Position numbers and translations under genes: made by a program
Notes under the pieces: model-generated
What the model was told of the DNA's origin: nothing
What the model saw: the letters and a program-made list of their open reading frames with translations, nothing else
Database searches by the model: none
In this document: positions 3,727 through 23,108 of the stretch, piece after piece
Numbering within the stretch: position 1 is the first letter of the stretch
How the letters are laid out: each line of letters opens with the position of its first letter
IMG/VR virus record: IMGVR_UViG_2534681901_000004
Span: 1 to 26,113 of that record
DNA length: 26,113 nucleotides
Strand: one strand, 5' to 3'
Source: a virus

Positions 3727-3931
3727 CGCCGGGACTGAGCAGAGGGTCGAACTCCATCCTGTCCCCGGTGAGTCGACTGTCTGGGTGACAGGACACGTCG
3801 AAAGTGGCTTCGGGCGCTTTCAGCATATCGACGGGCACCGAATCGCAGAGGGATACGTACAGACGGGCACTGATCAGTCGGTCTCACAGTCTGAGAACTC
3901 TACGCGAAGCGGAGGGGGTGACGACTCGTGA
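3719..3931 (+). CDS. Small hypothetical protein (70 aa)
   Basis: ATG 3719 overlaps the end of the previous gene and its stop overlaps the GTG of the next gene. It is the C-terminal part of track ORF 3380..3931. Confidence 0.55.
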   Translation: MTDAGTEQRVELHPVPGESTVWVTGHVESGFGRFQHIDGHRIAEGYVQTGTDQSVSQSENSTRSGGGDDS

Positions 3932-4158
3932 CGACCGGCTACGTGGTCGATCTCGACAACGGTCACGACAGCTACTGCGTCGAGAGCCTCGTCGGCGTCA
4001 CCTACTGCGGCGAGACGTTCGACCCGACGGCCGTCGATCGCGAACTCTACGCGATCGATCGCGGCGAGGACCACCCGCATAATTATTTTTGCTTCGACTG
4101 CTCAAAGGCCGACTCGCGAAAGGTCCGTAGTTTGGCCCGGGGTGAGACCGATGCCTGA
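3928..4158 (+). CDS. Small Cys/His protein, probable zinc binder
   Basis: SD-like GGGGGTGA upstream; GHDSYC...TYCG...YFCFDC; overlaps both neighbours. Confidence 0.7.
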   Translation: MTTGYVVDLDNGHDSYCVESLVGVTYCGETFDPTAVDRELYAIDRGEDHPHNYFCFDCSKADSRKVRSLARGETDA

Positions 4159-4384
4159 CCAACAGTCTCGCCCCTTCAAAGATCTCTCGCCGAGCGCCAA
4201 GCTTGTCTACAAGGTGCTTGAGTACGAGGGCAAACTCACTCAACAGGAACTCCGCGAGGAAACACTCCTCTCCCAGCGGACGATCTACAATTCCATCCGT
4301 GACCTTGAAGAGATCAGCGCGATCGATAGTCACCCTTGCCGAGAGGATCTTCGCAAAACGGTCTACTATATGGACAATAGATGA
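4151..4384 (+). CDS. Small winged-helix transcriptional regulator (haloarchaeal MarR/TrmB-like), 77 aa
   Basis: DLSPSAKLVYKVLEYEGKLTQQELREETLLSQRTIYNSIRDLEE matches the common haloarchaeal LPPSAKLV..VL...LTQ..L.EET.L..RTV pattern; GGGTGA SD before ATG 4151. Confidence 0.85.
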   Translation: MPDQQSRPFKDLSPSAKLVYKVLEYEGKLTQQELREETLLSQRTIYNSIRDLEEISAIDSHPCREDLRKTVYYMDNR

Positions 4385-4444
4385 TGATGGGAATATACTT
4401 CTCACCGTAAGATAATAGGCATTGAACAATAATTTGCCTATAAG

Positions 4445-5620
4445 ATGGAGAGCGGTTCTGAAAGGAATATTTCTATAGATCAGTCAGAAGAAAGGTGGGA
4501 TGTATTTTATGAAGAATTGTGTAGAAGGATTGATCATCAAATATCTGAGAACGCGAGGTTAGAAGATCAGGCGTTGTTCATTTTGCGGATAATCTTAGCG
4601 ACGATTGGACTTATTTTGACAGCCTTCTCAGTGGTAGCTTCCACAGGGAATGTTAACTCAGTATACTCGACTATTGATTCTACAGACATATATGACATTT
4701 CGAGCGGGATTGTAACCACATTACCTTATTTTAGTGATAGCCAAAGTGAGTTAGTAGCTGCTATTTTGGTCATCATTTTCATAGGCTATCTCATTAGATG
4801 TGTATTCTACCTGTTTATTCAGGTTCCGAGACATTCATATCAGGTTCTCCAACCAACTGTTTTGGAACCATCATCCGCCGCTCCAAAAATGGAAGTATAT
4901 TATAAAGAGGGTGTGGAAATGGTTAATATAAAACATTCTATCATAGAGGAGTACTCAGAATTGGCAGAATCTAATCAGAACAAAATTGAGTCTACCCGGT
5001 CCAGTTGGAAGGACTGCTATCAAGCTATCCGTAAAGGAACTATTAGCTTCGGGATTACCTTTATATTTCTAATTGCGATAGCAGTAATTCAGAATGCAAA
5101 TGTCACGCTCGTCCTACTTTTATTGTTTATTTGGTTCAATACAAGGAACATGGAGATATCTGATATAAGAGACCGAATAGAAGACCTATACATATATAAT
5201 GTCAAGATAGATGGGTCAACTGTTTTATTGCTCATAACAGCATATTTCCAATCATATGGTACTCCCACTCCTGTTCTTATGCGAAGGCACTGGCAATTCC
5301 TTTATTTGATTACTATAATTTCAACTAGTTTTGCTATTGTCTTCTATACTCGAGATATGGATTATGAACGAATAGAGCGGTATGCTAAGAGGTCGTATGT
5401 GATATCTGCGACCATCTTACTAGTGACTCTTGTTCTTAGTCTTGGAACTAGCCTTGAATATCAGCAAGATATTAGCCATATTGGTAATTTCTTAATCCTA
5501 TCGTTCGTAGTATTTATGCTTGAGTCTATCCTGACGATCATGATGGTGCCTATTTGGAAGGGGAACGAGTTTCTTTCCGAAAAAGTGTCTGAGATGACTG
5601 TTCCAGAATTCTCCAATTGA
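4445..5620 (+). CDS. AT-rich polytopic membrane protein (~8 TM); candidate defence or superinfection-exclusion moron
   Basis: About 8 hydrophobic segments by eye; GC 20/60 at 4501-4560 and 21/60 at 5221-5280 versus 37/60 at 2401-2460. The CDS is well supported; its function is inferred. Confidence 0.85.
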   Translation: MESGSERNISIDQSEERWDVFYEELCRRIDHQISENARLEDQALFILRIILATIGLILTAFSVVASTGNVNSVYSTIDSTDIYDISSGIVTTLPYFSDSQSELVAAILVIIFIGYLIRCVFYLFIQVPRHSYQVLQPTVLEPSSAAPKMEVYYKEGVEMVNIKHSIIEEYSELAESNQNKIESTRSSWKDCYQAIRKGTISFGITFIFLIAIAVIQNANVTLVLLLLFIWFNTRNMEISDIRDRIEDLYIYNVKIDGSTVLLLITAYFQSYGTPTPVLMRRHWQFLYLITIISTSFAIVFYTRDMDYERIERYAKRSYVISATILLVTLVLSLGTSLEYQQDISHIGNFLILSFVVFMLESILTIMMVPIWKGNEFLSEKVSEMTVPEFSN

Positions 5621-5729
5621 CTCCCTAGCTTGAAACAAAATGTCCCTAAGACACCGATATGCTTCCCAATTTGACACCCCCTGAACGAGAGGGCTGCAGA
5701 GAAGTAGAAGAAACTGCTACTTTCTCGCA

Positions 5730-5735
5730 TTTTAA
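5730..5735 (+). promoter_or_regulatory. Candidate archaeal TATA box (TTTTAA) for the downstream operon
   Basis: Fits the haloarchaeal TTTWWW consensus in an intergenic region; implies a start site near 5757-5762 and an ~88-nt leader to ATG 5848. Confidence 0.4.
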
Positions 5736-5847
5736 CCCCTACTACCAGTATATCTGATAGCAACGGTTGTCTCCTATCGCTCCCCGATCGAGGCAACGAC
5801 GACGTCGGGGGGTGGCCGACAGCCATCGGCTTCTCCGAGCGATCACC

Positions 5848-6390
5848 ATGTCCACCACAGCCCACACCATCGACGAGGTCCAGGGCCGCGACGAACCCGA
5901 CCGCGTCTTCCGACGCTACGTGTTCAACAACCCCGAGACATGCTCTAACTGCTTCTGTCGCATCAAGAGCGACCACCGACGCATCGCCTCCGGGACGGAA
6001 GGCCGCGACCTCGAGCCGAAGGTCACTCGGGCCGTGTCGGTCCGGGCCCACAAGACCGGTCCGGGCGAGATCGGCCCCGAAGGCCCACTCGAGGGCACTC
6101 GGCAGGTCGACAACACGGCGATCGCGAAGTACCCCGTCCGAACGGTCTGTGAGGACTGCGGGTCGATCGCTGGCCGGGCTGACTCGGATCCGCTGAGCCG
6201 TCGAAAGGCGCTCGCTCGTGCTGAAACACTCGCTGATCGACTCGCGGAGATCGGCGAACCGGTCCAACTGGATCTCCTGAAACACCTCGTGGGATACCTC
6301 AAGTCGCAAGAGGATCTCTCGAGCTACGACACGGAGTGTTTCGAGGCCGCGACCACGATCGCTGTTCGCGAGGCCCGCGATCGACGATGA
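5848..6390 (+). CDS. Hypothetical protein with two CxxC pairs (probable zinc binder), 180 aa
   Basis: CSNC and CEDC; CACCATG start context at 5844-5850; ATGA overlap with the next gene. Confidence 0.8.
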   Translation: MSTTAHTIDEVQGRDEPDRVFRRYVFNNPETCSNCFCRIKSDHRRIASGTEGRDLEPKVTRAVSVRAHKTGPGEIGPEGPLEGTRQVDNTAIAKYPVRTVCEDCGSIAGRADSDPLSRRKALARAETLADRLAEIGEPVQLDLLKHLVGYLKSQEDLSSYDTECFEAATTIAVREARDRR

Positions 6391-6575
6391 CCGTCCACCC
6401 GATCGAACCGGGGCTGCCCGTCGAGGTCCGCTTCGCCGGCCGTCGCCTCGAGGGCGTCGTCGACGAAGTCCGCTGGACGCCGACCTGGAACAACCCGCGC
6501 TCGGAGATCGTCGTCGACGCCGACGGCACGACGATCACGACGGGCCGGGCGAGCATCCAACCACTCACCAACTGA
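6387..6575 (+). CDS. Small beta-rich protein (62 aa), SH3/KOW-like pattern
   Basis: IEPGLPVEVRFAGRRLEGVVDEV resembles a G..V.V.....G.V..V small beta-barrel; ATGA overlap at 6387-6390. Confidence 0.65.
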   Translation: MTVHPIEPGLPVEVRFAGRRLEGVVDEVRWTPTWNNPRSEIVVDADGTTITTGRASIQPLTN

Positions 6576-6582
6576 TCCACCC

Positions 6583-6963
6583 ATGGAACCGAAAGATCCC
6601 GACGCACCGATCGATCCGTATAGCGAGTACGCCCTTTACGACGTCATCAACGGCGACCTCCCCGCCGGCGAGTCCACCGAGTACGAAGGTCTCCACCTTA
6701 TCTCGGGTGGCCCCAGCATCACCGTGCAACCGGACGGCCACGCCGGCTCGGTCGACACGATCGATCCCGGGGACTACGACGACGTCCTCGAGCTGGTCGA
6801 CGACCTGAACCGGCTGGTCCTCGAGTGGCGCGAACTATCGATCAACGGCACCGATGAGGACCTCATCGAGTGGGCCGGACCGTGGGTAACCTCGGACGAG
6901 TCGAAGGCCGACGACGACCACTGGCTCGTCGTTCCGGAGGACGTTCCTGAGGCCGGCGTCTGA
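6583..6963 (+). CDS. Acidic hypothetical protein (126 aa)
   Basis: Genome-typical codon usage and D/E richness; in operon context. Confidence 0.75.
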   Translation: MEPKDPDAPIDPYSEYALYDVINGDLPAGESTEYEGLHLISGGPSITVQPDGHAGSVDTIDPGDYDDVLELVDDLNRLVLEWRELSINGTDEDLIEWAGPWVTSDESKADDDHWLVVPEDVPEAGV

Positions 6964-6974
6964 CGGATCCTCCC

Positions 6975-7143
6975 CGATGACGTCCGGCGTCGCCCCCACC
7001 CCGTCGGACTGAGGGCCTTGTCATCGCTCCCGCCCGCTCCGGGACGGAGGCACCCGCCGACTACCAGACGTCCACGGGCCGTCCCGACCCGCGCCGGGAT
7101 CAGGCCGGGAAGGCCTCTCGCTGACACACCCGAGACCCGGCGC
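6975..7143 (+). ncRNA. Candidate structured RNA (leader or attenuator) ahead of the lysis/packaging operon
   Basis: Nested stems 6975-6981/7020-7026 and 6982-6989/7002-7009; three-way junction 7091-7098/7136-7143 enclosing 7103-7106/7112-7115 and 7116-7120/7131-7135. Folded by eye only. Confidence 0.35.
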
Positions 7144-7166
7144 ACCCCTTTTCATACTGACACACC

Positions 7167-7487
7167 ATGCCAGACGATCCAACCCAACTGAGCCGGCTAC
7201 TCCGACTCTTTCGACAGGCCGGCGCACCATCCGAGGACAGTACCGACCGCGACGGAGCGTTCAGCTACCACGCCGAATCTCATGCCGCCGGCCTCGGCAT
7301 CGGTCTCGGTGCGATCGCCACCGCGACCGGAAACTATCGCTATGTCGGCGGTTTGCTTGCCGCCGCGTTCGGGCTCAACCGTGGCCCAACACTCTCGAGT
7401 AGCAATATCACTGGCGACGTCCGCCAGGAACCGCACTACTTCATCGGCGGGCTCGCGCTCGGACTCGTCCTCGGGGCGGTCGTCTAG
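7167..7487 (+). CDS. Small Gly-rich membrane protein (candidate lysis or virion membrane protein)
   Basis: Hydrophobic segments AAGLGIGLGAIATATG, YVGGLLAAAFGL and YFIGGLALGLVLGAVV; upstream of terS. Confidence 0.75.
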   Translation: MPDDPTQLSRLLRLFRQAGAPSEDSTDRDGAFSYHAESHAAGLGIGLGAIATATGNYRYVGGLLAAAFGLNRGPTLSSSNITGDVRQEPHYFIGGLALGLVLGAVV

Positions 7488-7491
7488 CTCC

Positions 7492-7776
7492 ATGAGCGAT
7501 GCCATGGCAACGAGACAACACAAATCAACGACCCGCGAATCGATCCGGGAGTGCAACGAAGCCGTTTCGAGGCGATTCCACGTGACGCTCGCCGTTTACA
7601 AGACAATCAAGGCGACAACGCAGCTGATCGGCGTCGTCGGTGGCATCCTCGCGATGCAACAGGGCGCCGACCCGATGACATCGCTGACGATCATCGGCGC
7701 GATCCTCGTCGGGCCGGAGATCCTCGAGTACACGATCGCGAACGAGCCGCCTCGAGACCACGACCGCAAGGACTGA
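7492..7776 (+). CDS. Small two-TM membrane protein, holin-like topology (94 aa; alternative start 7504)
   Basis: TM segments QLIGVVGGILAMQQ and LTIIGAILVGPEIL; charged C-terminus RDHDRKD; directly before terS. The holin role is inference. Confidence 0.7.
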   Translation: MSDAMATRQHKSTTRESIRECNEAVSRRFHVTLAVYKTIKATTQLIGVVGGILAMQQGADPMTSLTIIGAILVGPEILEYTIANEPPRDHDRKD

Positions 7777-7820
7777 ACACCCCATGAGCCGCTCGGATCT
7801 CTACAACACCCCATGAGCCG
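7776..7820 (+). repeat. Perfect 16-bp direct repeat AACACCCCATGAGCCG
   Basis: Copies at 7776-7791 and 7805-7820 (29-nt period), between the membrane gene and terS. Confidence 0.95.
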
Positions 7821-7823
7821 ACG

Positions 7824-8369
7824 ATGACGAAGGATCCAGAAGACACCAAGTTCGGCCGCTGCGAGGCCACGTCGAAGTCGACCGGCCAGCGCTGCGGCCG
7901 GGCGGCCACCGGCCCGCACGGGAAGTGCGACATCCACGGCGGCAAGTCGAATACGGGCGAGGAGAACGGCAACTTCAAACACGGCCTGTTCTCCGATCAC
8001 CTCTCCGAGCGCGATCGCCAGACGATCACCGCCCTCGAGGGGATGGACGATGACGAGAAACTGGACGAGATCATCAACTGGCGACTCGCCCGACTCCGGC
8101 GCTACCTGCGGGAGATGTCCGAGGAAGAGGAGATGTCCTTCTGGGACGCCTTCAGATCGATCATCAACCGCACGGGGACGATCGAGGACTCCGAGATCCG
8201 GGAGCTGGCGAAGATGCTCGACAAGAACAACCGGTCCGTCCAGGCGGAGATCGACCTCGTCCGGAAGCTGATCAAGGACCGAAACAAGATCGCCGAGGGA
8301 GAGGACGTCAACGTCAACGCCGGCGACGCATGGCGGAACGCGCTCGCGAACGCGGGTGGTGACTCATGA
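7824..8369 (+). CDS. terS: Terminase small subunit with N-terminal HGGxSTG-type Cys/His domain
   Basis: CEATSKSTGQRC...KCDIHGGKS plus NGNFKHGLFS; helical C-terminus; ATGA overlap with terL. Confidence 0.8.
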   Translation: MTKDPEDTKFGRCEATSKSTGQRCGRAATGPHGKCDIHGGKSNTGEENGNFKHGLFSDHLSERDRQTITALEGMDDDEKLDEIINWRLARLRRYLREMSEEEEMSFWDAFRSIINRTGTIEDSEIRELAKMLDKNNRSVQAEIDLVRKLIKDRNKIAEGEDVNVNAGDAWRNALANAGGDS

Positions 8370-9988
8370 GTTCGAGCGCCGATGTCGTCGACCCGCAGAA
8401 TCTCGACATCACGCGGTACACGCAGGGCGATGACCGCTACGTCCGGTACGCCGAAGAGATCCTCGGCCTCGAGCTCGCCGACACCCAGAAGCGGATCCTC
8501 CGTGCGGTCGCCAAACACCGCCGACTGATCGTCATGTCGGCCAACGGCGTCGGGAAGAGCTACACGGCGACGGCGCTGAAACACGGCTTCCTCGAGACGA
8601 ACCTCGACTCGACGGCGCTCGGGACGTCCGGGTCCTACTCGCAGTTCGAGGACGCCGTCTGGCGGCCACTGAAGAAGCTCCACAAGGAGGCCAAGCAGCG
8701 CCTCGGACTCCCCGGAGAGACCTACGACGGCGGCCAGCCCCGCCTCGAGATCGATGACGACTGGTTCGCGAAGATCGTCTCCCCGCGGGATCCCGGCGAC
8801 CTCGAGGGTCGGCACGCGGCGGACGTCCTGGTCGTGATCGAGGAAGCCGACAAGAAGTACATCACCGCGGAACACTTCGATAGCGCCGGGTCGTCAGTTA
8901 CCGACGGGAGCGACCGGATGCTCGCGGTCTGCAACCCGCCACGGGACGAGACGAACGTCGTCGCCGAGAAGCTCGAGTCGAACCGCTGGCACGTCATCCA
9001 GTTCTCCAGCTTCGAGTCTCACAACGTGCTCGTCGACGCCGGCGAGCTCGACGCCGATCACATCCCGGGGCTGGTCGACCTCCCGACGATCGCCGAGGAC
9101 TGGGAGGACTGGAACAGCGAACCGTGGCCCGAAGCACCGACGCACTGGGACGGCGACTACCCCGGCGTCGCGATGCTGAACGACCGCGTCGAGGCCGGTG
9201 ACCTTGAGCGCGAGGACGTCATCGAGATCCTCCGGCCAGGGTTCGATGAGGCGCGGCAGGCCCACGATCGTCGCGAGGATCTCGACGAGCGCTGGTACCG
9301 GCGCCGCGCCGGGATCATCCCGCCAGCGGGAGCCGAGAAGAACCGCCCGTTCGATCTCGACGCAGTCGACTCGAGCTACGTCCCGCCGAACAAGTTCCGT
9401 GCGACGGGCCCGCGCTGCGGGACTGGGGTCGACGTCGCCCGCAGCGGCGACCGCACGGTCCAGATCGACGAGCGGAAAGACCAGCTCGACGTCGCCTACT
9501 CGGAACCCGGCACCGATCACACGGTCCAGTTCAACACGATCTGGGACAACCTCGACGAGGAACCGAACGCCACGATCTCGATCGACGCGATCGGGGAAGG
9601 CTCAGGCAAGGCCGACGACACGGCCGCCCGGTATCCAGATGTCGACCGGTTCAAGGCCGGCGAAGAAGCCGCCCAGAGTGACGAGTACAAGGATCGCTGG
9701 ACCGAGGGGCTGTGCGAACTCGGGAACTGGCTCGAGGCCGGCGGGACGTTTTCCGACTCTCGGCTCCGACGCGAACTGCAGATCGCCGCGCGGACCCTCA
9801 CACTCGAGGAGAACTACTACGCGAGCCGCGGGGACGAGGTCTACGTCGCCGATCCGAAATCGAAGGTCGAGGACCGCCTCGGCCACTCTCCAGACCACCT
9901 CGACGCGGCGATCATGGCGGTCCTCGCGTCGAAGGGCGTGATCCCCGAGGATGAGGACGACACCACCAGCGGTACCGGAACGTGGTAA
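8366..9988 (+). CDS. terL: Terminase large subunit
   Basis: Walker A SANGVGKS; Walker B VLVVIEEA; motif CNPP; RNase H-like GVDVARSGDRTV; C-terminal SPDHLDA. Confidence 0.95.
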   Translation: MSSSADVVDPQNLDITRYTQGDDRYVRYAEEILGLELADTQKRILRAVAKHRRLIVMSANGVGKSYTATALKHGFLETNLDSTALGTSGSYSQFEDAVWRPLKKLHKEAKQRLGLPGETYDGGQPRLEIDDDWFAKIVSPRDPGDLEGRHAADVLVVIEEADKKYITAEHFDSAGSSVTDGSDRMLAVCNPPRDETNVVAEKLESNRWHVIQFSSFESHNVLVDAGELDADHIPGLVDLPTIAEDWEDWNSEPWPEAPTHWDGDYPGVAMLNDRVEAGDLEREDVIEILRPGFDEARQAHDRREDLDERWYRRRAGIIPPAGAEKNRPFDLDAVDSSYVPPNKFRATGPRCGTGVDVARSGDRTVQIDERKDQLDVAYSEPGTDHTVQFNTIWDNLDEEPNATISIDAIGEGSGKADDTAARYPDVDRFKAGEEAAQSDEYKDRWTEGLCELGNWLEAGGTFSDSRLRRELQIAARTLTLEENYYASRGDEVYVADPKSKVEDRLGHSPDHLDAAIMAVLASKGVIPEDEDDTTSGTGTW

Positions 9989-9991
9989 CCC

Positions 9992-11455
9992 ATGACTGAC
10001 ACTTCTACAACAGACGAGACGGACGACTCCGCCGGCGGCGGCCGGGAGGCCGAACTGGTCGCACAAGACGATGGGCTCTCGGCCCGGCAGGAGTTTCAGA
10101 TGCGGTTCGCACTCGCCCAGGCGCTGGGTGAGAATATCCCCGGCGACGAGGACTACTACGAGGTCTTCAGCTGGGACAAGAACCCGACCGTCGAGGACTT
10201 CTTCGCCCTCGCGCTGCGGAACCCCTACGCCTATGCTGTCACGTTCCTGCCGCCGTCGACGACCTGGCGCAACCCGCCGCAGATCGACGATAGGGACGAG
10301 CCCCCAGAGGGCGCCGACCAGACACAGTTCGAGGCCGACGTCCAGGAACTCGTCGACGATCACCAACTGTGGCACTACGCGAAACGAGCCGACAAGCTCG
10401 CCGGTATCGGGAAGTTCGGCGTACTCGTCCTCGAGTTCGACGACGTCGACGATCCCGACGGCTTCTCGAGCCCAGTCGAGGCCGGCGCCGAACTGACGGG
10501 ACTCCGTCCGTTCTCAAGAGCGTCGGTTACAGATGTCGCAGTCGGTGGGCCTGGCTCTGGGCGCTGGGGTGACCCGGTCGAGTATACGCTCGACCTCTCG
10601 GACGAGAACGAGTACGAGACCGTGATCCAGCATCAGGGAGACGAGACGGTCGACGTCCACTGGCAGCGGGTAATCCACATCCCGTCGGACGAGCTTCTGG
10701 ACGACGAGCTTCGAGGCATCCCGCGGCAGAAGCCGGTCTACAACAACTTGGTCGACATCGAGAAGACGCTCGGCGCCGCCGGCCAACTCGTCTACCGAGC
10801 CGCTGCGTGGGGTATCCACATCAACATCTCCGAGGACTTCAACCTCGAGGACGACGGTGACGAACTCCGCGAACACCTCCAGCGCTGGCAGCACGGCCTC
10901 GAGAACGTCCTTCGGACCCACGGCGCCGACGACGTCAAGAGCCTCGGCGGCGAGGACATCGACCCGCAGCCGGTCATCGACCCGAACATCGAGGCGGTCA
11001 GTGCCCAGACGGGCCTCCCCCAGTCCGTCCTGAAGGGCAACGAGACCGGCGAGCGGGCCACCACGCAGGACCTCAAGGAGTGGTACGGGAAGATAGCCGA
11101 ACGGCGCAACGAGTTCGTCGAGCCGCAGATCGTCCGTGCGACCATCGACCAGCTGCAGGACATCGGCACGATCGCCGAGCCGCAGGGCGCTGGTTACGAG
11201 GTGAAGTGGCAGCCGCTGGCCGAGATGTCCGAGTCGGACCAGGCAGAGATCCGCAAGACTCGGGCCGAGGTCCTCGAGACGTGGCTGCAGGTCGCGCCCG
11301 GCGTCCTCACCCCCAAGCAGCAGCTGGAGTTCATCGAGGACGGCGATCTCCCGTCCGAACTCGAGGACGCCGACCTCCCGGAACTGGACGAAGCTGATCC
11401 GGAGGTCGCGGCACAGTTCGAGTCCGCGTTCGGTTCCGCGGAGGCTGATGACTGA
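9992..11455 (+). CDS. Portal protein (DUF1073-type)
   Basis: Follows terL; 487 aa; motifs GIGKFGVLVL, VHWQRVIH, SAQTGLPQSVLKGNETG and DLKEWYGKIAERRNEFVEP. Confidence 0.9.
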   Translation: MTDTSTTDETDDSAGGGREAELVAQDDGLSARQEFQMRFALAQALGENIPGDEDYYEVFSWDKNPTVEDFFALALRNPYAYAVTFLPPSTTWRNPPQIDDRDEPPEGADQTQFEADVQELVDDHQLWHYAKRADKLAGIGKFGVLVLEFDDVDDPDGFSSPVEAGAELTGLRPFSRASVTDVAVGGPGSGRWGDPVEYTLDLSDENEYETVIQHQGDETVDVHWQRVIHIPSDELLDDELRGIPRQKPVYNNLVDIEKTLGAAGQLVYRAAAWGIHINISEDFNLEDDGDELREHLQRWQHGLENVLRTHGADDVKSLGGEDIDPQPVIDPNIEAVSAQTGLPQSVLKGNETGERATTQDLKEWYGKIAERRNEFVEPQIVRATIDQLQDIGTIAEPQGAGYEVKWQPLAEMSESDQAEIRKTRAEVLETWLQVAPGVLTPKQQLEFIEDGDLPSELEDADLPELDEADPEVAAQFESAFGSAEADD

Positions 11456-15963: not shown

Positions 15964-15974
15964 GGTGATCGGAC

Positions 15975-16349
15975 ATGAGCGAGCCAACCGTTCGCGTCCG
16001 GGTCGCCGGCGCACAGTTCCGGTTCGACCGTGAACAGTACACTCGCGGTGACGAGCTCGAGGTCCCCGAACGGATCGTCAGTCGTCATCCGCGGACGCTC
16101 GCGATCGTCGAGGAAGACGTCGACGACGACGGAGGGGCCACCGGTGCCGGGGACGCCACCGGCGAGCTGGCCGTCGACGATCTCGATCCTCACCCGAAGG
16201 ATCTCGACGTCCCAGGGCTGGAAGATCGTATCGCGGATGTCGACGATGTCAGCCTCCTCAAGGCGATCAAGGAGGCCGAGAAGCAGAACGACGATCGTAC
16301 GACCGCGAAGAACGCGATCGACTCGCGACTGAACGAACTCGAGGGGTAA
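15975..16349 (+). CDS. Post-capsid two-domain protein (short beta N-terminal domain plus helical C-terminal domain)
   Basis: YTRGDELEVPE N-terminus; C-terminal LLKAIKEAEKQNDDRTTAKNAIDSRL; SD upstream. Confidence 0.75.
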   Translation: MSEPTVRVRVAGAQFRFDREQYTRGDELEVPERIVSRHPRTLAIVEEDVDDDGGATGAGDATGELAVDDLDPHPKDLDVPGLEDRIADVDDVSLLKAIKEAEKQNDDRTTAKNAIDSRLNELEG

Positions 16350-16720: not shown

Positions 16721-17167
16721 ATGCTTTCTGGCTTCGAAAACGACGAGGCGGTGTTCTTCGTCGAGCGTCAGGTCGGGTCCGAAGAGGGCCCGTACGGCGA
16801 GACCGAGCCAGTCTACGTGTGGATCCCGCTGTCGCTCGAAGACGACCAGTGGGACTACGTCGACGGCGAGGTCGTCTACGACGAGGCCGACGTCGAGGCC
16901 GCCGAGGTACGGTCCGAGCAGCGCAGTGCCGAGTACATTCGCGAGGTCTACTCGGAATGGCCACAGGAGGTCTATCGGCTGTACGTCGATCCAGTGGACG
17001 TCGGCTCGATCACGGGGGGTAACTACGAACTCGAGATCGAGGCTGACGACCGCGTCGACCTCGTAAGCGTCGACGGTCGGTTCGCGACCCAGCCGCCGAA
17101 CGTCCAGCGGCTCGACTCGGCCGTTCCAGAGTACGTCGAACTCGAAGTGACGAGAGTGGAGGTCTGA
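16721..17167 (+). CDS. Head closure/stopper protein (SPP1 gp16-like)
   Basis: Beta-rich, 148 aa; GPYGETEPVY hairpin and IEADDRV; position between adaptor and HK97 gp10-like gene. Confidence 0.6.
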   Translation: MLSGFENDEAVFFVERQVGSEEGPYGETEPVYVWIPLSLEDDQWDYVDGEVVYDEADVEAAEVRSEQRSAEYIREVYSEWPQEVYRLYVDPVDVGSITGGNYELEIEADDRVDLVSVDGRFATQPPNVQRLDSAVPEYVELEVTRVEV

Positions 17168-17169
17168 CG

Positions 17170-17556
17170 ATGGACGTCAACCTCGACTTCGAGAGCGGCT
17201 TCGCTCCCGAGGACGCCCAGGAGGTGTTCGAGAGCATGGTCGAGAGCGCTGACGACCAGCTCATGGAGCGGATGGAAGAGGCCGAGCAGAACATCCAGAA
17301 AGAGGCCCAGCAGCGCTCCCCCGTCGACACCGGGAACCTCCGGGCCTCGTGGACGGGGCTAACCGAGGCTCGGCGCGGGACGATCATGACCGAGGTCGGC
17401 AACACCACCGACTACGCCGAGTTCGTCGAGAAGGGGACCAGCAAGATGGCCGCGCAACCGATGCTCCGGCCGGCGATGGACCGCGAGCAGATGGCGCTGA
17501 TCCGCGACATCGAGCAGCTGGTCACGAAGATCGCCGCGAAGGAGGGCAACGCATGA
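17170..17556 (+). CDS. HK97 gp10-like tail completion/neck protein
   Basis: SPVDTGNLRASW; YAEFVEKGTSKMAAQPMLRPA. Confidence 0.92.
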   Translation: MDVNLDFESGFAPEDAQEVFESMVESADDQLMERMEEAEQNIQKEAQQRSPVDTGNLRASWTGLTEARRGTIMTEVGNTTDYAEFVEKGTSKMAAQPMLRPAMDREQMALIRDIEQLVTKIAAKEGNA

Positions 17557-17984
17557 CCTACGGCCTACACGATGCCCTGCGGGACACGATCGTCGACCTG
17601 CGGGATCACGACGAACTCGTCACGCACCTCGAGGATACCAGTGCGATCGACGAGGGTTGGCCGAAGGATCCCCAGGAGTACCCGGTCGTCGTCCGTGTCC
17701 AGCCGGTCACGGAGACATCGAACTCTCAGCGAGAGTTCTCGACGATCCAGCGGCAGTTCCGGGTCCAAGTCGCGGTCGTCGCGAAGGACTCCTGGCGCTC
17801 CGACCAGGACGCCCCGACCTACCGGATAGCCGAGATCATGGCGGCGGTCGCCGACCGACTCGACGTCGCCGTCGACGCGCCGGAGCTGCTGCCCAGCGGC
17901 ACCGACTCGAGCGGCTGGACCGAGGTCACCGGCGACCGCCTCGCGCTCACCCAGGACTGGCTGACGATGACCTACACGCGATAA
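17553..17984 (+). CDS. Tail terminator protein (143 aa)
   Basis: ATGA overlap at 17553-17556; EYPVVV and FRVQVAV pattern; gene order. Confidence 0.7.
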   Translation: MTYGLHDALRDTIVDLRDHDELVTHLEDTSAIDEGWPKDPQEYPVVVRVQPVTETSNSQREFSTIQRQFRVQVAVVAKDSWRSDQDAPTYRIAEIMAAVADRLDVAVDAPELLPSGTDSSGWTEVTGDRLALTQDWLTMTYTR

Positions 17985-17986
17985 CG

Positions 17987-18130
17987 ATGCCATCAGGAGA
18001 GATCGCCCGCGGTCCAACCGCGCACGTCGACGCACAGATCACCAACGCCCAGCCCGACGCGGCGTTCGGTCGAGACGACACTGGCCGGGTGACCGGCCGA
18101 CTGGCCATCTACGGCCCCGGGGAACCATAA
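17987..18130 (+). CDS. Small hypothetical protein (47 aa)
   Basis: Fills the gap between terminator and the next gene; TAA-CG-ATG junction as at other tail genes. Confidence 0.55.
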   Translation: MPSGEIARGPTAHVDAQITNAQPDAAFGRDDTGRVTGRLAIYGPGEP

Positions 18131-19471: not shown

Positions 19472-19599
19472 ACCGCGAGCAACGCTACCGGCCCGAGGAG
19501 TTCTTCGCGATGGACGAGGCGGAGCGGGCCTTCTGGATCACTCGCTATAGCAAGTACCAAGAAGAGCGCCAGAAGCTCGGCGATCAGTTCTCCATCTGA
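19384..19599 (+). CDS. -1 frame extension of the chaperone (gpGT-like; fusion ~206 aa)
   Basis: The -1 frame reads GAWRGRDAVSESRDVADSPIGRFLEWLNREQRYRPEEFFAMDEAERAFWITRYSKYQEERQKLGDQFSI to TGA 19597-19599; absent from the ORF track. Confidence 0.85.
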   Translation, partial: FFGAWRGRDAVSESRDVADSPIGRFLEWLNREQRYRPEEFFAMDEAERAFWITRYSKYQEERQKLGDQFSI

Positions 19600-19623
19600 C
19601 TACTTTTCGACACTACGACAGCC

Positions 19624-21975
19624 ATGCCTACGATATCAACACTCACCGCCGTCCTCGAGCTGGACAAGTCCGACTTCGAGTCGAAACTCGACACCGCAAA
19701 ACGGGACCTCGACGGCTTTGGTTCCCGGGCCCAGCAGACGGGCGAGAAGCTGACAGCTGCCGGGAAGTCGATGACGATGGGGATCACGGCTCCCCTCACT
19801 GCGATGGGCGCGCTCTCGGCTCGGACAGCGGCGAACTTCGACCAGGCGATGCAGCGGTCGATCGCCGTGATGGGCGACGTCGACGAGGCGATGCGCGAGG
19901 ACCTCGAGGAAAGAGCGAGGCAGGTCGCAAACACGACGACTCATAGTGCGAGTCAGGCGGCGGAGAGCTACTACTACCTCGCCAGCGCCGGCCTCGATGC
20001 TGCACAGGCGATGGAAGCGATGCCCCAGGTCGCCGCGTTCGCCGAGGCTGGGAACATGCAGATGGCCGAGGCGACCGATGTCGCGACGAACGTCATGTCG
20101 GCGTACAACTACGAGGCCAGTGAGATGTCCGAAGTGACGGACACGCTCACCGCGACGGTCTCGAACCACAACCAGACGATGCAGGACATGAGTACTGCCA
20201 TGTCCCGCGTCGCGCCGATCGCCTCGTCGCTCGGCGTCTCGATCGAAGAGACATCCGCGGCGATCGGGCAGATGGGCGACGTCGGCATCCAAGGCGAGCG
20301 GGCCGGAACGGCGCTTCGAAACGTCTTGTCTCAGCTCTCCGACGAGGCCTCGCCAGTTACCAAGCGGCTCGAGGAAATGGGCGTCCAGACTCGGGACGCG
20401 GAGGGGAACGTCCTCTCGCTGACACAGATCCTCGAGAACATGGAAGAGGCTGGCGTCGAGGCTGGCGACGCGGCGCGGATCTTCGGGACCGAAGCGGGGC
20501 CGGCGATGGCCGCGCTCATGGAGCAGGGGTCGGACGCGCTCGAGCAGAACACGCAACGTCTTCGCGAAGCCGAAGGCGCGACGACCGACATGGCACAGAC
20601 CCAGCGCGACACGCTCAACGCCGAGATGCAGATCGCGCGCTCGAACCTCGAGGACGTCGGAATCGCGATCGGTTCTCAGCTAATTCCGATGCTCACGACG
20701 GCAACTGGATACATCAAGGGCGCTGCTCAGACGTTCCAGGGGCTGAACGACGGCCAGCAGCGGGCGATCATCGTCGCCGGCGGGCTGGCAGCTGCCCTCG
20801 GCCCAATCCTCATGATGGTCGGACTGCTGGCCCAGTCTGTCGTTGCCCTGTCTGGGGCCTATGGCGTCCTATCGGGGGCGTCCTTAGGCCTCTCGGGGAC
20901 ACTGACGGGAACACTTGTCCCGTCGACGATCGCAGCCCAAGGCGGCCTCACCGGGATGGCCGCCAGCGCCCTCGCCGCACAAGTAAGCATCATGGGTTTG
21001 ACAGCCCCTGTCTGGGCCGTCATTGGTGCTATTGGGTTACTGATAGGTGCAGTCGGCGCTTTTGCCGTCGCCTACCAGCGCAACTGGAAGGGCGTTCGCG
21101 ACTACACGGAGTGGGCGATCGACCCGATCACCGACGGTATCGACTGGTTTGTCGAGAAGCTATTCGGGATCAGTTCCGCCTCCGAAAAGGTCGCAGGCGC
21201 ATTCGGTGATTTCATAGATTGGGTAATTGAAAAGATCAATAGCATACCCAAAATCAACCTCGATAGCGGCGACCTCGGCGATTTCGACACATCGTCTGCG
21301 AAGCCTGGCGATAAGAGTGCCAGCGATGTCATGGGCTCCGAAGACTTCGAGCAGCAGGGCCAACAGGCGGGGCAGGACTTCGGGTCCGGCTTCCAGGAGG
21401 GCCTCGTCGAGGGCCTCGAAACGGAGCAGGTCGATCAGGTCCTCAGCGAGGACCTCGAGGAGATCACCACCGAGATCGAGGACCTCCGATCCGGGATGAC
21501 CACCCAGTCCGAGTGGGAACGGGTCGAGGAACTCGAACAGCAGGCCGAGCAGCTCCGGCAGCAGCGCCAGCAACTCGAGGAGACGGGCGACGTCACTACC
21601 GTCGACCAGGAGTACGTCGCCGAAGCCGCCCGCCGCGACCTCCAGGAAGAGCAGGAGCGTGCGGAGTACATGGAGGACGTCTACAGTCGGCTCGACGAGG
21701 AGGAGCTGGACGCGAACGTCGACACGAATCGCGAGGTCTCGCTCTCCGACGAGGACATCCAGTCGCTGGATGCCGAGACCATCCAGTCGATGACCGAGCA
21801 GGAGGGCGACGATCCGACGAAGAAGATCCTCGAGGAACTGAAACAGCTCCGCAGCGATCTCAACTCGCTCCGGCTGCGCGTCGACCTGGAACACAACTGC
21901 CGTGAGTTCGAGAAGATCATGGAAGACACCGCGGAGGGGGTCTTCGAAGAAGAGATCAACAGCACCGGACCATAG
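19624..21975 (+). CDS. Tail tape measure protein (TP901-type core)
   Basis: MTMGITAPL, SASQAAESYYYLASAG, GIQGERAGTALRN and ARIFGTEA motifs; hydrophobic middle; acidic coiled-coil C-terminus. Confidence 0.95.
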   Translation: MPTISTLTAVLELDKSDFESKLDTAKRDLDGFGSRAQQTGEKLTAAGKSMTMGITAPLTAMGALSARTAANFDQAMQRSIAVMGDVDEAMREDLEERARQVANTTTHSASQAAESYYYLASAGLDAAQAMEAMPQVAAFAEAGNMQMAEATDVATNVMSAYNYEASEMSEVTDTLTATVSNHNQTMQDMSTAMSRVAPIASSLGVSIEETSAAIGQMGDVGIQGERAGTALRNVLSQLSDEASPVTKRLEEMGVQTRDAEGNVLSLTQILENMEEAGVEAGDAARIFGTEAGPAMAALMEQGSDALEQNTQRLREAEGATTDMAQTQRDTLNAEMQIARSNLEDVGIAIGSQLIPMLTTATGYIKGAAQTFQGLNDGQQRAIIVAGGLAAALGPILMMVGLLAQSVVALSGAYGVLSGASLGLSGTLTGTLVPSTIAAQGGLTGMAASALAAQVSIMGLTAPVWAVIGAIGLLIGAVGAFAVAYQRNWKGVRDYTEWAIDPITDGIDWFVEKLFGISSASEKVAGAFGDFIDWVIEKINSIPKINLDSGDLGDFDTSSAKPGDKSASDVMGSEDFEQQGQQAGQDFGSGFQEGLVEGLETEQVDQVLSEDLEEITTEIEDLRSGMTTQSEWERVEELEQQAEQLRQQRQQLEETGDVTTVDQEYVAEAARRDLQEEQERAEYMEDVYSRLDEEELDANVDTNREVSLSDEDIQSLDAETIQSMTEQEGDDPTKKILEELKQLRSDLNSLRLRVDLEHNCREFEKIMEDTAEGVFEEEINSTGP

Positions 21976-21977
21976 CG

Positions 21978-23108
21978 ATGCAACTGCACACACTCGAGTT
22001 CTCCAGCGATCAGGTCGGACAGATCAGCGTCGGGGCCAGCCCCGACACCACCGAACAGACACCGCTCGACGATCGCGGCTCAGCAGAGATGCTCGCAGGG
22101 CCGACCCCGTCGATCTCGTTCGACGTCGCCGTCGACGGACCAGACGGACGGCGCCGTGGCGCCGAACTCGAGCACCTTCTCTCCCAGCCGATGTTCGCCC
22201 CAGTCGCGGTCTCGATCCCATCCCAGCCCGACCTCGAGGGGTACTATGTGGGATCGAGCGTCGATCGCGACGTCGTCCTCTCGCAGGAGGGTGGCGACGA
22301 TCACCACGTCGTGCCGTTGACGCTCTCGCGGGCTGGGACGTCTGGATCGCACTACCGCGCTCTCGAGACGCGACCCGTCGACGACGAGATCGATCACCCA
22401 TATGGCAACGACACGACGCTCCTGGTTGGCCTCCCGGCAGTCGCCAAGCAGGTCCAGTGGTTTGATCCCGAGGGCGAAACGCGCCAGCTCGCGTCACCAA
22501 TCGAGACCCGCAGCGCCGAGGGCGGCGACGTCGAGATCTACGACCTCGCCGACGGCGAAGCTGCGGTTGGGACCGGGTCGCCGGCGCTCGTCTACGCGAT
22601 CGCTCTCGAGGCCGAGGGTGACGTCGACGTCGGTGTTTTCGATACGCAGGGGTCGGGAGACAGGGCCGACTGGGCCCAGATCTTCTCGCCGAAGACCGGC
22701 CTCACCGGCAGCGAGGTCGTGATGTGCAACGGCCTCATCCGGCTGCGCCTCGACGAGCCCAACAGTACCCTCGAGGCCCAGCGCTGGGACGCGACCAACA
22801 CGACTTGGACGACGGTCGGCCTCGAGGCAGACCAACCCTCGACCGTCGAGCTATTCGACGTCGATCTCGAGACGGTCGCGATGGCTCGCGATCGCGCCCA
22901 GTTGACCTTCACCGTCGACGGCTCGCTGTTCGCGCTCGACGCGATCCTCGCTCGCGGCGACAAGGACGTCCTCTTTACCATCCCCCCGAACGAGAGCGGC
23001 CCGATCCCGGCCGACCTCGAGAACTGGCTCTCGCCGGTCGCGAGCTCGAGCGTTGTCGATCCAAACGCCTCGAAGGACCTGGTCGCTCGCTCGGAGGTGC
23101 GTCGATAG
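21978..23108 (+). CDS. Putative distal tail / baseplate-proximal protein
   Basis: 376 aa, beta-rich, immediately after the tape measure; assignment by position only. Confidence 0.55.
   Translation: MQLHTLEFSSDQVGQISVGASPDTTEQTPLDDRGSAEMLAGPTPSISFDVAVDGPDGRRRGAELEHLLSQPMFAPVAVSIPSQPDLEGYYVGSSVDRDVVLSQEGGDDHHVVPLTLSRAGTSGSHYRALETRPVDDEIDHPYGNDTTLLVGLPAVAKQVQWFDPEGETRQLASPIETRSAEGGDVEIYDLADGEAAVGTGSPALVYAIALEAEGDVDVGVFDTQGSGDRADWAQIFSPKTGLTGSEVVMCNGLIRLRLDEPNSTLEAQRWDATNTTWTTVGLEADQPSTVELFDVDLETVAMARDRAQLTFTVDGSLFALDAILARGDKDVLFTIPPNESGPIPADLENWLSPVASSSVVDPNASKDLVARSEVRR

What the first reader, a model, noticed from the sequence alone, without database searches (positions are those of the whole stretch)
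4445..5620. AT-rich moron encoding an ~8-TM protein with a PycTM-like N-terminal half: candidate new archaeal antiviral or exclusion effector
Seen: about 33-35% GC in sampled lines versus >60% in flanks, intact 391-aa ORF, inserted between replication and late genes. The first ~215 aa show a helix (RRIDHQISENARLEDQAL), TM1, TM2 ending in a Pro, a cytoplasmic helix (EYSELAESNQNKIE) and TM3; about five more TMs follow. Known: Pycsar PycTM and SLATT-type effectors are small TM proteins, and prophage morons often encode defence or exclusion. No cyclase or sensor gene is adjacent. Inference: a stand-alone effector fused to an extra membrane domain.
Basis: partly seen in the sequence, partly recalled or inferred. 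Interest (0 to 1): 0.7.

Follow-up and report, generated by a model that had tools for sequence, protein, structure and literature searches.

The report
Virus-borne PycTM-like archaeal membrane protein
An AT-rich accessory gene in a salt-loving archaeon's provirus encodes an eight-helix membrane protein whose front half is a distant, cyclase-less relative of the Pycsar antiviral pore protein PycTM. Its relatives travel on unrelated viruses and in defence islands, so it is a testable candidate for a new archaeal virus-exclusion effector.

Summary
ORF 4445-5620 is an intact 391-aa gene at 38% GC (GC3 0.38), while flanking virus genes have GC3 0.79-0.88.

The window is a provirus about 93% identical to haloarchaeal tailed virus HJTV-4. 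There, a two-gene cassette (wHTH 4142-4384 plus this gene) replaces HJTV-4 gp6-gp8.

The protein has no Pfam, NCBIfam, PADLOC, PDB or BFVD match. It does belong to a rare, unnamed haloarchaeal family (55 clusters, 7 of 401 genomes). AlphaFold2 gives a confident eight-helix model (pLDDT 90.6).

The N-terminal three-TM module is homologous to short stand-alone haloarchaeal proteins (hhalign 99%). Those in turn match genuine PycTM (93-94%, whole domain, above all but one anomalous shuffle control). The direct link is weak (25-48%).

No cyclase is adjacent or anywhere in the genome, so it is not a Pycsar system.

Family members are always AT-rich. They sit in tailed proviruses, a pleolipovirus-like element, integrase elements and tRNA-adjacent islands, often beside TIR, Pycsar or E1-E2 genes, and usually behind a small DNA-binding gene.

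Best reading (about 0.45): a stand-alone membrane effector for exclusion or abortive infection. The function is untested, and a GC-normal resident branch of the superfamily tempers the case.

The parts
4445..5620 (+). Intact gene for a 391-aa, ~8-TM membrane protein (P0001); GC 0.377, GC3 0.378
   Evidence: Purifying selection against the N. zhouii copy: pN 0.10, pS 0.82.
4445..5149 (+). N-terminal module (aa 1-~235): cytoplasmic helix-TM1, acidic outside loop, TM2 with Pro motif, cytoplasmic helix-TM3(-TM4). Carries nearly all family-conserved residues (Q32, R48, N177, E24, R27, Y170, W188, G198). Remote PycTM-like.
   Evidence: hhalign to short forms: 99.2-99.4%. Short forms to PycTM: 93-94%. 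Direct link: 25-48%. Atlas structural lead: TM 0.59.
5150..5617 (+). C-terminal module (aa ~236-391): four to five further TM helices, poorly conserved (only D256, R316, G334). Specific to the long-form family, with no detectable relatives.
4142..4384 (+). Small winged-helix DNA-binding gene (80 aa from GTG 4142, or from ATG 4151), part of the same cassette; GC3 0.64
   Evidence: HTH_11 3.7e-6, plus TrmB/MarR-type hits. Conserved with the membrane gene in N. zhouii.
4385..4444 (+). AT-rich intergenic spacer with a TATA-like element (taagataatagg, ~25-36 bp before the ATG): possible own promoter with a leaderless transcript (inference only)
4128..5724 (.). Cassette that replaces HJTV-4 positions ~4401-5932 (gp6, gp7, gp8-MarR). 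Flanks align at 92% (3858-4127) and 90% (5725-7193). No flanking direct or inverted repeats.

Best explanation
The ORF is a real gene under purifying selection. It encodes an eight-helix cytoplasmic-membrane protein carried as accessory cargo by an HJTV-4-like tailed provirus of a Natrinema-type haloarchaeon. It arrived as a two-gene AT-rich cassette (small wHTH regulator plus membrane protein) in a variable slot between the replication and packaging modules. Its N-terminal three-TM module is a distant, cyclase-independent relative of PycTM. PycTM is the pJV1-SpdB3-type 3TM effector of Pycsar/Pucsar, which assembles into a hexameric channel and causes abortive infection. I infer that this protein likewise oligomerises in the membrane and, when triggered, compromises the membrane or blocks entry. 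That would protect the lysogen or island carrier against other viruses (superinfection exclusion or abortive infection). The family-specific C-terminal 4-5-helix domain would take the place of the cyclic-nucleotide signal as regulator or sensor. The adjacent small DNA-binding protein and the strongly non-host codon usage would keep expression low. Shown: gene integrity, selection, composition, cassette replacement, fold model, remote homology chain, absence of cyclase, genomic contexts. Inferred: oligomerisation, membrane action, antiviral role, and the roles of the C-domain, the wHTH and the AT-richness.
For: (1) Accessory status. The gene is absent from all 50,697 phage records including HJTV-4. 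The cassette replaces gp6-gp8. GC3 is 0.38 against about 0.85. (2) Real and constrained. pN is 0.10 and pS 0.82 against the N. zhouii copy. The family has 55 clusters with full-length matches. The AF2 model has pLDDT 90.6. (3) PycTM relation. A1 vs short forms gives Prob 99.2-99.4. Short forms vs PycTM give Prob 93-94, E 1e-7 to 3e-7, 138-146 co-linear columns. The reversed control gives 2.8%, and block shuffles reach at most 29-45 against the real score of 55. The direct comparison of the N-half gives 48.5% over 145 columns, against controls of at most 28. The atlas structure lead has TM 0.59 to a PycTM-bearing cluster. (4) Known mechanism of the relatives: a hexamer with TM2 lining a ~15 A channel and an abortive-infection phenotype (bioRxiv 10.64898/2026.08.12.744502); pore formation (PMC11224242). 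(5) Contexts of 15 long-form loci. Tailed proviruses or viruses: window, L001, L064. Pleolipovirus-like element: L061. Integrase elements: L058, L062, L063. tRNA-adjacent islands: L007, L008, L048. Neighbours confirmed by PADLOC: TIR (L062, L063), PycTM plus PycC (L063), E1-E2 (L006). (6) A small DNA-binding gene lies directly upstream in the window, L001, L006, L007, L008, L028, L031 and L045, and is fused in L035. (7) All members are 36-51% GC in 47-66% GC surroundings despite 20-35% protein identity. (8) Decayed copies (N. zhouii deletion, G237 with 3 stops) fit a dispensable, possibly costly gene.
Against: No experiment exists, and no defence HMM hits the protein. The direct PycTM profile link is weak (Prob 10-48%), and TM proteins are prone to false profile matches. 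Two members are solitary genes among housekeeping genes (L057, L059). The superfamily has a GC-normal chromosomal branch present in 15 of 19 genomes of the genus, e.g. L004:904-1740 between host genes, so the module need not be antiviral. Context counts are small, not statistically controlled, and some loci are orthologous. Self-association could not be tested. The trigger is unknown.
Confidence: 0.45

Rival explanations
1. Addiction/toxin-antitoxin-like module. The membrane protein is a toxin and the upstream small DNA-binding protein is its antitoxin/repressor. The pair stabilises the provirus or island rather than defending against other viruses.
For: Two-gene cassette with an upstream small DNA-binding gene of interchangeable type (two wHTH kinds). 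Located on mobile elements. Decayed copies exist. AT-rich codon usage could throttle a toxic product.
Against: Many members lack an adjacent regulator by the HMMs used, and two are solitary among housekeeping genes without a partner. At 391 aa and 8 TM it is far larger than known membrane toxins. No TA family matches.
Confidence: 0.15
2. Ordinary membrane protein without a conflict role, e.g. a structural or stress-related membrane component. It is merely hitch-hiking cargo, AT-rich because it circulates in an AT-rich mobile gene pool.
For: A GC-normal resident branch of the superfamily is conserved within the genus. Solitary members lie among housekeeping genes. No defence HMM hits.
Against: The distribution is very patchy (7 of 401 genomes). 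The gene is carried by two unrelated virus families. It recurs next to TIR/Pycsar/E1-E2 genes. No transporter or enzyme fold appears.
Confidence: 0.15
3. Membrane-bound signalling partner of the wHTH. It would act as a sensor or anti-repressor that tethers or releases the regulator, for example to control lysogeny or element gene expression.
For: A wHTH lies directly upstream in at least 8 loci, and there is an in-frame wHTH-N-module fusion in L035. The outside loop between TM1 and TM2 could sense signals.
Against: The wHTH types differ between loci and are absent from many. The conserved residues lie in the helix/TM core rather than in a docking surface. Homology points to pore-type effectors.
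Confidence: 0.12
4. DNA-transfer or egress pore. By analogy with the Streptomyces plasmid spread proteins after which the pJV1-SpdB3 3TM family is named, or with holins/viroporins, the protein would help the element's own DNA or virions cross the membrane.
For: The PycTM family is described as pJV1-SpdB3-type. The gene is carried by mobile elements and viruses.
Against: It is absent from the closely related, viable virus HJTV-4. It also occurs solitary in chromosomes. It is not placed with the morphogenesis or putative lysis genes. At 391 aa and 8 TM it is unlike holins.
Confidence: 0.08
5. Canonical Pycsar-type effector activated by a cyclic mononucleotide made elsewhere in the cell.
For: Remote homology to PycTM. 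One family member shares an island with a real Pycsar pair.
Against: No PF00211 cyclase is in the 99%-complete genome. Only 5 of the 135 genomes with the module have any such cyclase. Real haloarchaeal PycTM genes sit directly beside their cyclase in 6 of 8 cases. In L063 the Pycsar pair has its own PycTM.
Confidence: 0.03

Closest known systems
PycTM / PucTM (Pfam PF18967; 'pJV1-SpdB3 family 3TM' effectors of Pycsar and Pucsar antiphage systems)
   Same: The N-module has the same order of elements: a cytoplasmic helix running into TM1, TM2 followed by a Pro-containing turn, then a cytoplasmic helix running into TM3. Profile homology exists through short-form intermediates (93-94% then 99%). 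It is AT-rich and island-borne in haloarchaea like the real PycTM genes.
   Different: No hit to PF18967 or the PADLOC PycTM models. There is no partner cyclase in the locus or genome. The outside loop is about 40 aa longer. There is an additional 4-5-TM C-terminal domain. It is carried by viruses. The trigger is unknown.
SLATT-type 2TM effectors of CBASS-like systems
   Same: Small helical TM effector concept; stand-alone membrane module in conflict loci.
   Different: No SLATT Pfam family matched the protein or any of 77 relatives at permissive thresholds. There is no SMODS/SLOG partner.
Prophage morons / superinfection-exclusion membrane proteins (e.g. lambda Rex, P22 Sie; recalled from general knowledge)
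   Same: An accessory gene of deviating composition in a variable slot of a temperate virus, next to a regulator and dispensable for the virus itself.
   Different: No sequence or fold relation to any of them. Archaeal host. Exclusion phenotype untested.
Short-form haloarchaeal N-module proteins (unnamed; ~215-290 aa; e.g. L004:904-1740 and L003:1402-2229 in the same genome)
   Same: Clear homology of the whole N-module (Prob 99%, E 2e-19). They share invariant Gln and Asn residues (Q32, N177).
   Different: They lack the C-terminal domain. One branch is GC-normal, chromosomal and conserved within the genus. Others carry other fusions: wHTH in L035 and a C-terminal extension in L034.

Membership tests
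PycTM (PF18967 / PADLOC PycTM) | Significant match to the family HMM | tested here: not met
   No PF18967 hit for the protein, its halves or the genome at E<=10. No PADLOC hit at E<=10. Genuine haloarchaeal PycTM score 1e-28.
PycTM (PF18967 / PADLOC PycTM) | 3TM topology: cytoplasmic helix-TM1, TM2 plus Pro turn, cytoplasmic helix-TM3 | tested here: met
   Hydropathy, charge distribution and AF2 helices 11-66, 98-135 and 159-215. Co-linear alignment with PycTM.
PycTM (PF18967 / PADLOC PycTM) | Profile-profile homology to the family | tested here: inconclusive
   Direct: Prob 10-48%, above reversed and shuffled controls. Transitive via short forms: 99% and 93-94%. This supports superfamily kinship, not family membership.
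Pycsar system | Adjacent pyrimidine/purine cyclase (PycC, class III cyclase fold) | tested here: not met
   No PF00211 in the own genome. The window neighbours are MCM, wHTH and unknowns. Real PycTM are adjacent to a cyclase in 6 of 8 haloarchaeal cases.
Pycsar system | cNMP-triggered oligomeric channel and abortive infection | not testable with these tools
SLATT effectors | Match to a SLATT Pfam model and a SMODS/SLOG-type partner | tested here: not met
   No SLATT family among hits for the protein or 77 relatives. No such partner in the window.
Prophage moron | Absent from the closest virus genome at the same slot; deviating composition | tested here: met
Prophage moron | Own promoter/terminator and expression in the lysogen | tested here: inconclusive
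   A TATA-like element lies 25-36 bp upstream. There is no clear terminator and no expression data.
Transporters (MFS and others) | HMM or fold match to a transporter family | tested here: inconclusive
   No Pfam/NCBIfam hit. Foldseek PDB best E 0.76. VIA best Z 8.9, to generic helical bundles. Atlas MFS rows have TM 0.2-0.4 only.
Type II toxin-antitoxin-like cassette | Small DNA-binding gene immediately upstream of the effector in one operon | tested here: met
   wHTH at 4142-4384, 60 bp before the ORF. This recurs in at least 8 loci. Toxicity and neutralisation are not testable here.

The most novel reading that the evidence does not exclude
This is a self-contained archaeal antiviral effector family derived from the PycTM/SpdB3 3TM channel fold and freed from cyclic-nucleotide signalling. 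The added 4-5-helix membrane domain would sense an incoming virus directly, for example genome injection or membrane perturbation, and gate the channel. The family would be traded between unrelated haloarchaeal viruses (tailed and pleolipoviruses) as a superinfection-exclusion weapon. Its AT-rich coding would be kept by selection as an expression throttle.
Probability: 0.25. Interest if true: 0.75.

Novelty: new variant of a known kind. Interest (0 to 1): 0.55.

Why it matters
Very little is known about how archaeal proviruses protect their hosts, or about membrane-acting immune effectors in archaea. This gene defines an unnamed family that links the Pycsar 3TM effector fold to a cyclase-free, virus-borne form. 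It occurs in two unrelated haloarchaeal virus lineages and beside TIR, Pycsar and E1-E2 defence genes.

A member exists in Haloferax gibbonsii, a genetically tractable genus with isolated viruses, so the hypothesis is directly testable.

The family also raises a clean evolutionary question. All members stay near 38-40% GC in 60-66% GC genomes, even though synonymous sites are saturated. What maintains that?

Tried and rejected
- Pfam, NCBIfam and PADLOC scans of the protein, its halves and 77 relatives gave no meaningful family.
- A profile search of PDB sequences gave nothing below E 0.005.
- Foldseek against PDB and BFVD gave nothing below E 0.5. VIA-align wide gave only generic helical bundles, Z at most 8.9.
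- The atlas search on the C-half gave no usable hit.
- The search for related loci with the 50-sequence alignment failed for lack of conserved stretches.
- With the three closest sequences, it found no relative in IMG/VR and only N. zhouii among genomes.
- The search for homologous proteins with the family profile added nothing.
- There are no flanking repeats suggesting transposition and no tRNA in the window.
- The C-half is not an internal duplicate of the N-half.
- The guess that the small upstream ORFs in L061/L062 are ribbon-helix-helix proteins found no support in PDB sequence searches.
- The C-terminal extension of L034 looks PD-(D/E)xK-like by eye, but Pfam gave only a weak DUF2130 hit.
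- One of 30 column shuffles gave an anomalous 17-column, high-scoring hit that I regard as an artefact.
- Earlier scan notes held nothing on this gene.

Full report
**1. The observation.**
The window holds an uninterrupted ATG-initiated ORF at 4445-5620 on the + strand, encoding 391 aa. GC falls to 0.36-0.38 in 300-bp windows across the gene, against 0.58-0.69 on both sides. The drop is synonymous. GC3 is 0.378, against 0.79-0.88 for the MCM, orf76, terminase and portal genes. The same protein written in the virus's own codon usage would have 57% GC rather than 38%. The upstream 80-aa gene (4142-4384) is a winged-helix protein (HTH_11 3.7e-6, plus TrmB/MarR-type hits) with intermediate GC3 (0.64).

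**2. Where it sits.**
The window is G000:C50:152924-179036 of a 99%-complete haloarchaeal genome. It is about 93% identical, over 67% of its length, to haloarchaeal tailed virus HJTV-4 of Natrinema thermotolerans. Pairwise blastn shows collinear blocks. Window 3858-4127 matches HJTV-4 4131-4400 (92%), and window 5725-7193 matches 5933-7397 (90%).

Between these blocks, the window's wHTH plus 391-aa gene replace HJTV-4 gp6 (275 aa), gp7 (131 aa) and gp8 (MarR-type wHTH). No phage record encodes a relative of the protein. No repeats flank the cassette. A TATA-like element lies 25-36 bp before the ATG. So this is a cassette exchange in a variable slot between the replication and packaging modules, which is moron behaviour.

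**3. A second copy, and selection.**
Natrinema zhouii carries the same cassette (wHTH plus gene) in a provirus remnant. That copy is also about 37% GC, but an internal deletion of about 0.4 kb removes TM3-TM7 and shifts the frame. Over the shared 204 codons pN is 0.10 while pS is 0.82 (saturated). The gene has therefore been under strong purifying selection for a long time, yet both copies remain AT-rich.

**4. The family.**
An exhaustive phmmer search of 1.8 billion cluster representatives found 55 hits, mostly 350-420 aa and aligned end to end. The two-part architecture is therefore a conserved family and not a one-off fusion.
- None of 50 members has a meaningful Pfam, NCBIfam or PDB-sequence match.
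- Conservation is concentrated in the N-half (Q32 invariant; R48 and N177 at or above 96%; E24, R27, Y170, W188, G198). The C-half keeps only D256, R316 and G334.
- In a sample of 401 Halobacteria genomes, full-length members occur in 7, plus one pseudogene with three stops.

**5. Structure.**
AlphaFold2 with the family alignment gives a confident all-helical model (mean pLDDT 90.6, pTM 0.78). The helices are 11-66, 98-135, 159-215, 218-235, 253-271, 277-302, 307-334 and 337-385. Hydropathy and the charge distribution (no Lys/Arg in loop 62-102) give an N-in, C-in topology with about eight TM helices. Foldseek against PDB and BFVD and VIA-align against 48,161 chains return only generic long-helix bundles (best E 0.58-0.76; best Z 8.9). 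No transporter or enzyme fold is recognised.

**6. Relation to PycTM.**
The direct tests fail or are weak:
- No PF18967 or PADLOC PycTM hit, even at E<=10.
- hhalign of the family against 7, 46 or 83 genuine haloarchaeal PycTM gives Prob 10%, 25% and 48%.
- The 48% alignment, however, covers the whole PycTM domain co-linearly (145 columns, score 32.9). It exceeds reversed profiles (about 17), 40 column shuffles (at most 18.6) and 40 block shuffles (at most 28.0 over about 50 columns).

The family profile also detects many shorter haloarchaeal proteins (215-290 aa) that consist of the N-module alone; 135 of 401 genomes have a hit. These short forms give a stronger chain:
- They match the family's N-half at Prob 99.2-99.4% (E 2e-19 to 9e-22).
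- They match PycTM at Prob 93-94% (E 1.4e-7 to 3.1e-7, 138-146 columns).
- I obtained this both in my script and with the platform's tools.
- The reversed control gives 2.8%. Block shuffles reach at most 29 (15-column blocks) or 45 (30-column blocks), against the real score of 55. One column shuffle gave a 17-column artefact.

An independent lead points the same way. The ESM-Atlas model of residues 12-216 aligns best to a cluster in which 31% of members carry PF18967 (TM 0.59), while all other rows are at or below 0.39. I conclude that the N-module belongs to the same superfamily as PycTM but is not a member of PF18967.

**7. Not a Pycsar system.**
Genuine haloarchaeal PycTM genes (8 of 301 genomes) lie directly beside a class-III cyclase in 6 of 8 cases. 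The window's genome has no PF00211 domain at all. Only 5 of the 135 genomes with the N-module have one. In one island (L063) a family member coexists with a complete Pycsar pair that has its own PycTM.

**8. What the relatives do.**
PycTM is reported to disrupt membrane integrity by pore formation (PMC11224242). A 2026 preprint describes PycTM/PucTM as 'pJV1-SpdB3 family 3TM' effectors. It reports a 2.67 A hexameric EcPucTM cylinder with TM2 lining a ~15 A channel, and an MOI-dependent abortive-infection phenotype (10.64898/2026.08.12.744502).

**9. Genomic contexts of the long form (15 loci).**
| Context | Loci |
|---|---|
| Tailed proviruses or virus contigs | window, L001, L064 |
| Pleolipovirus-like element (HRPV envelope protein, VP3, DUF1424, integrase) | L061 |
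| Integrase-bearing elements at one Haloferax-type site | L058, L062 (L062 also carries a TIR gene) |
| Integrase island with TIR_2 immediately downstream, DUF4238 and Pycsar | L063 |
| Island with multi-ubiquitin/E2/E1-JAB, DUF3800, MazE | L006 |
| tRNA-adjacent positions | L007 (tRNA-Ile, 470 bp), L008 and L048 (tRNA-Met beside cca) |
| AT-rich regions, one with a weak HamA-like neighbour and one with a transposase-like neighbour | L051, L052 |
| Solitary AT-rich genes among housekeeping genes | L057, L059 |

PADLOC confirmed the TIR, PycTM, PycC and E1-E2 neighbours. All members are 36-51% GC (most 36-44%) in 47-66% GC surroundings.

A small DNA-binding gene lies directly upstream on the same strand in the window, L001, L006, L007, L008 (two copies), L028, L031 and L045, and is fused in frame in L035.

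**10. A caveat.**
The superfamily is not purely mobile. A GC-normal short form (L004:904-1740) lies between ordinary host genes 3 kb before the window, and similar hits occur in 15 of 19 genomes of the genus. The same genome also has an AT-rich short form next to tRNA-Met and a DUF7845 gene (L003/L053). The fold alone is thus no proof of an antiviral role.

**11. Interpretation.**
The best-supported reading is a stand-alone, membrane-acting effector that benefits the carrier element, through superinfection exclusion or abortive infection. It would work through an oligomeric PycTM-like channel, with the extra C-terminal domain replacing the cyclic-nucleotide trigger. The adjacent regulator and rare codons would keep it quiet.

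Rival readings are an addiction (toxin-antitoxin-like) module, a membrane signalling partner of the wHTH, a DNA-transfer or egress pore, or a conflict-neutral membrane protein. A canonical Pycsar role is essentially excluded.

**12. Verdict.**
The finding is a new variant of a known kind: a cyclase-free, virus-borne, extended relative of the PycTM effector fold. It belongs to an unnamed family and is readily testable in haloarchaeal model systems.

Noticed in passing
L053:5007-6632, L048:4807-6567, L054:8030-9643, L006:19650-21131: A ~540-590-aa DUF7845 gene (E 1e-106) recurs directly next to N-module genes and a few hundred bp after tRNA-Met/tRNA-Arg genes beside the cca gene. It is possibly the marker (recombinase or replication gene?) of an undescribed tRNA-targeting haloarchaeal island.
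   Followed up: partly
L035:1156-2130 and L034:1489-2586: Domain fusions of the short N-module. L035 has a PhiH1-repressor-like wHTH fused in frame in front. L034 has a ~130-aa C-terminal extension with a D...E.K motif that looks PD-(D/E)xK nuclease-like by eye, though Pfam gave only a weak DUF2130 hit.
   Followed up: partly
L004:904-1740 (G000:C50, ~3 kb before window start): A GC-normal 278-aa short-form relative lies between an alpha/beta-hydrolase gene and a diphthine-synthase-like gene. Similar hits occur in 15 of 19 genomes of the genus, indicating a resident chromosomal branch of the superfamily with unknown function.
   Followed up: partly
L001:14507-15085 (Natrinema zhouii): A 192-aa metallo-beta-lactamase-fold gene annotated with PF23023 (Anti-Pycsar Apyc1) lies 4 kb downstream of the decayed copy of the gene. 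It may be an ordinary host hydrolase.
   Followed up: no
window 7194-7497, 7777-9967, 15964-15995, 19594-19623 vs HJTV-4: There are other mosaic differences from HJTV-4. The terminase region (window ~7777-9967) has no nucleotide match to HJTV-4 8318-10779. HJTV-4 segments ~16830-18079 and ~21817-24744 (including an HNH endonuclease gene) are missing from the window. The tape-measure gene is only 69% identical.
   Followed up: no
L061:1-12245: A 12-kb metagenomic contig looks like a complete or near-complete pleolipovirus-type provirus (integrase, methylase, DUF1424, VP3, HRPV-type envelope protein). It carries a 407-aa family member as cargo between the integrase and structural modules.
   Followed up: partly
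G237:C1:788065-788868: A further decayed family copy with two TGA and one TAA stops inside the match. Together with the N. zhouii deletion, this suggests frequent loss.
   Followed up: no
all long-form loci (e.g. window 4445-5620; L047:6983-8110; L050:7001-8185): GC3 stays at 0.35-0.47 in every member, although members are only 20-35% identical and synonymous sites are saturated between the two closest copies. Some are single-gene AT-rich islets between genes of GC3 0.85-0.94. What maintains this composition is unexplained.
   Followed up: partly
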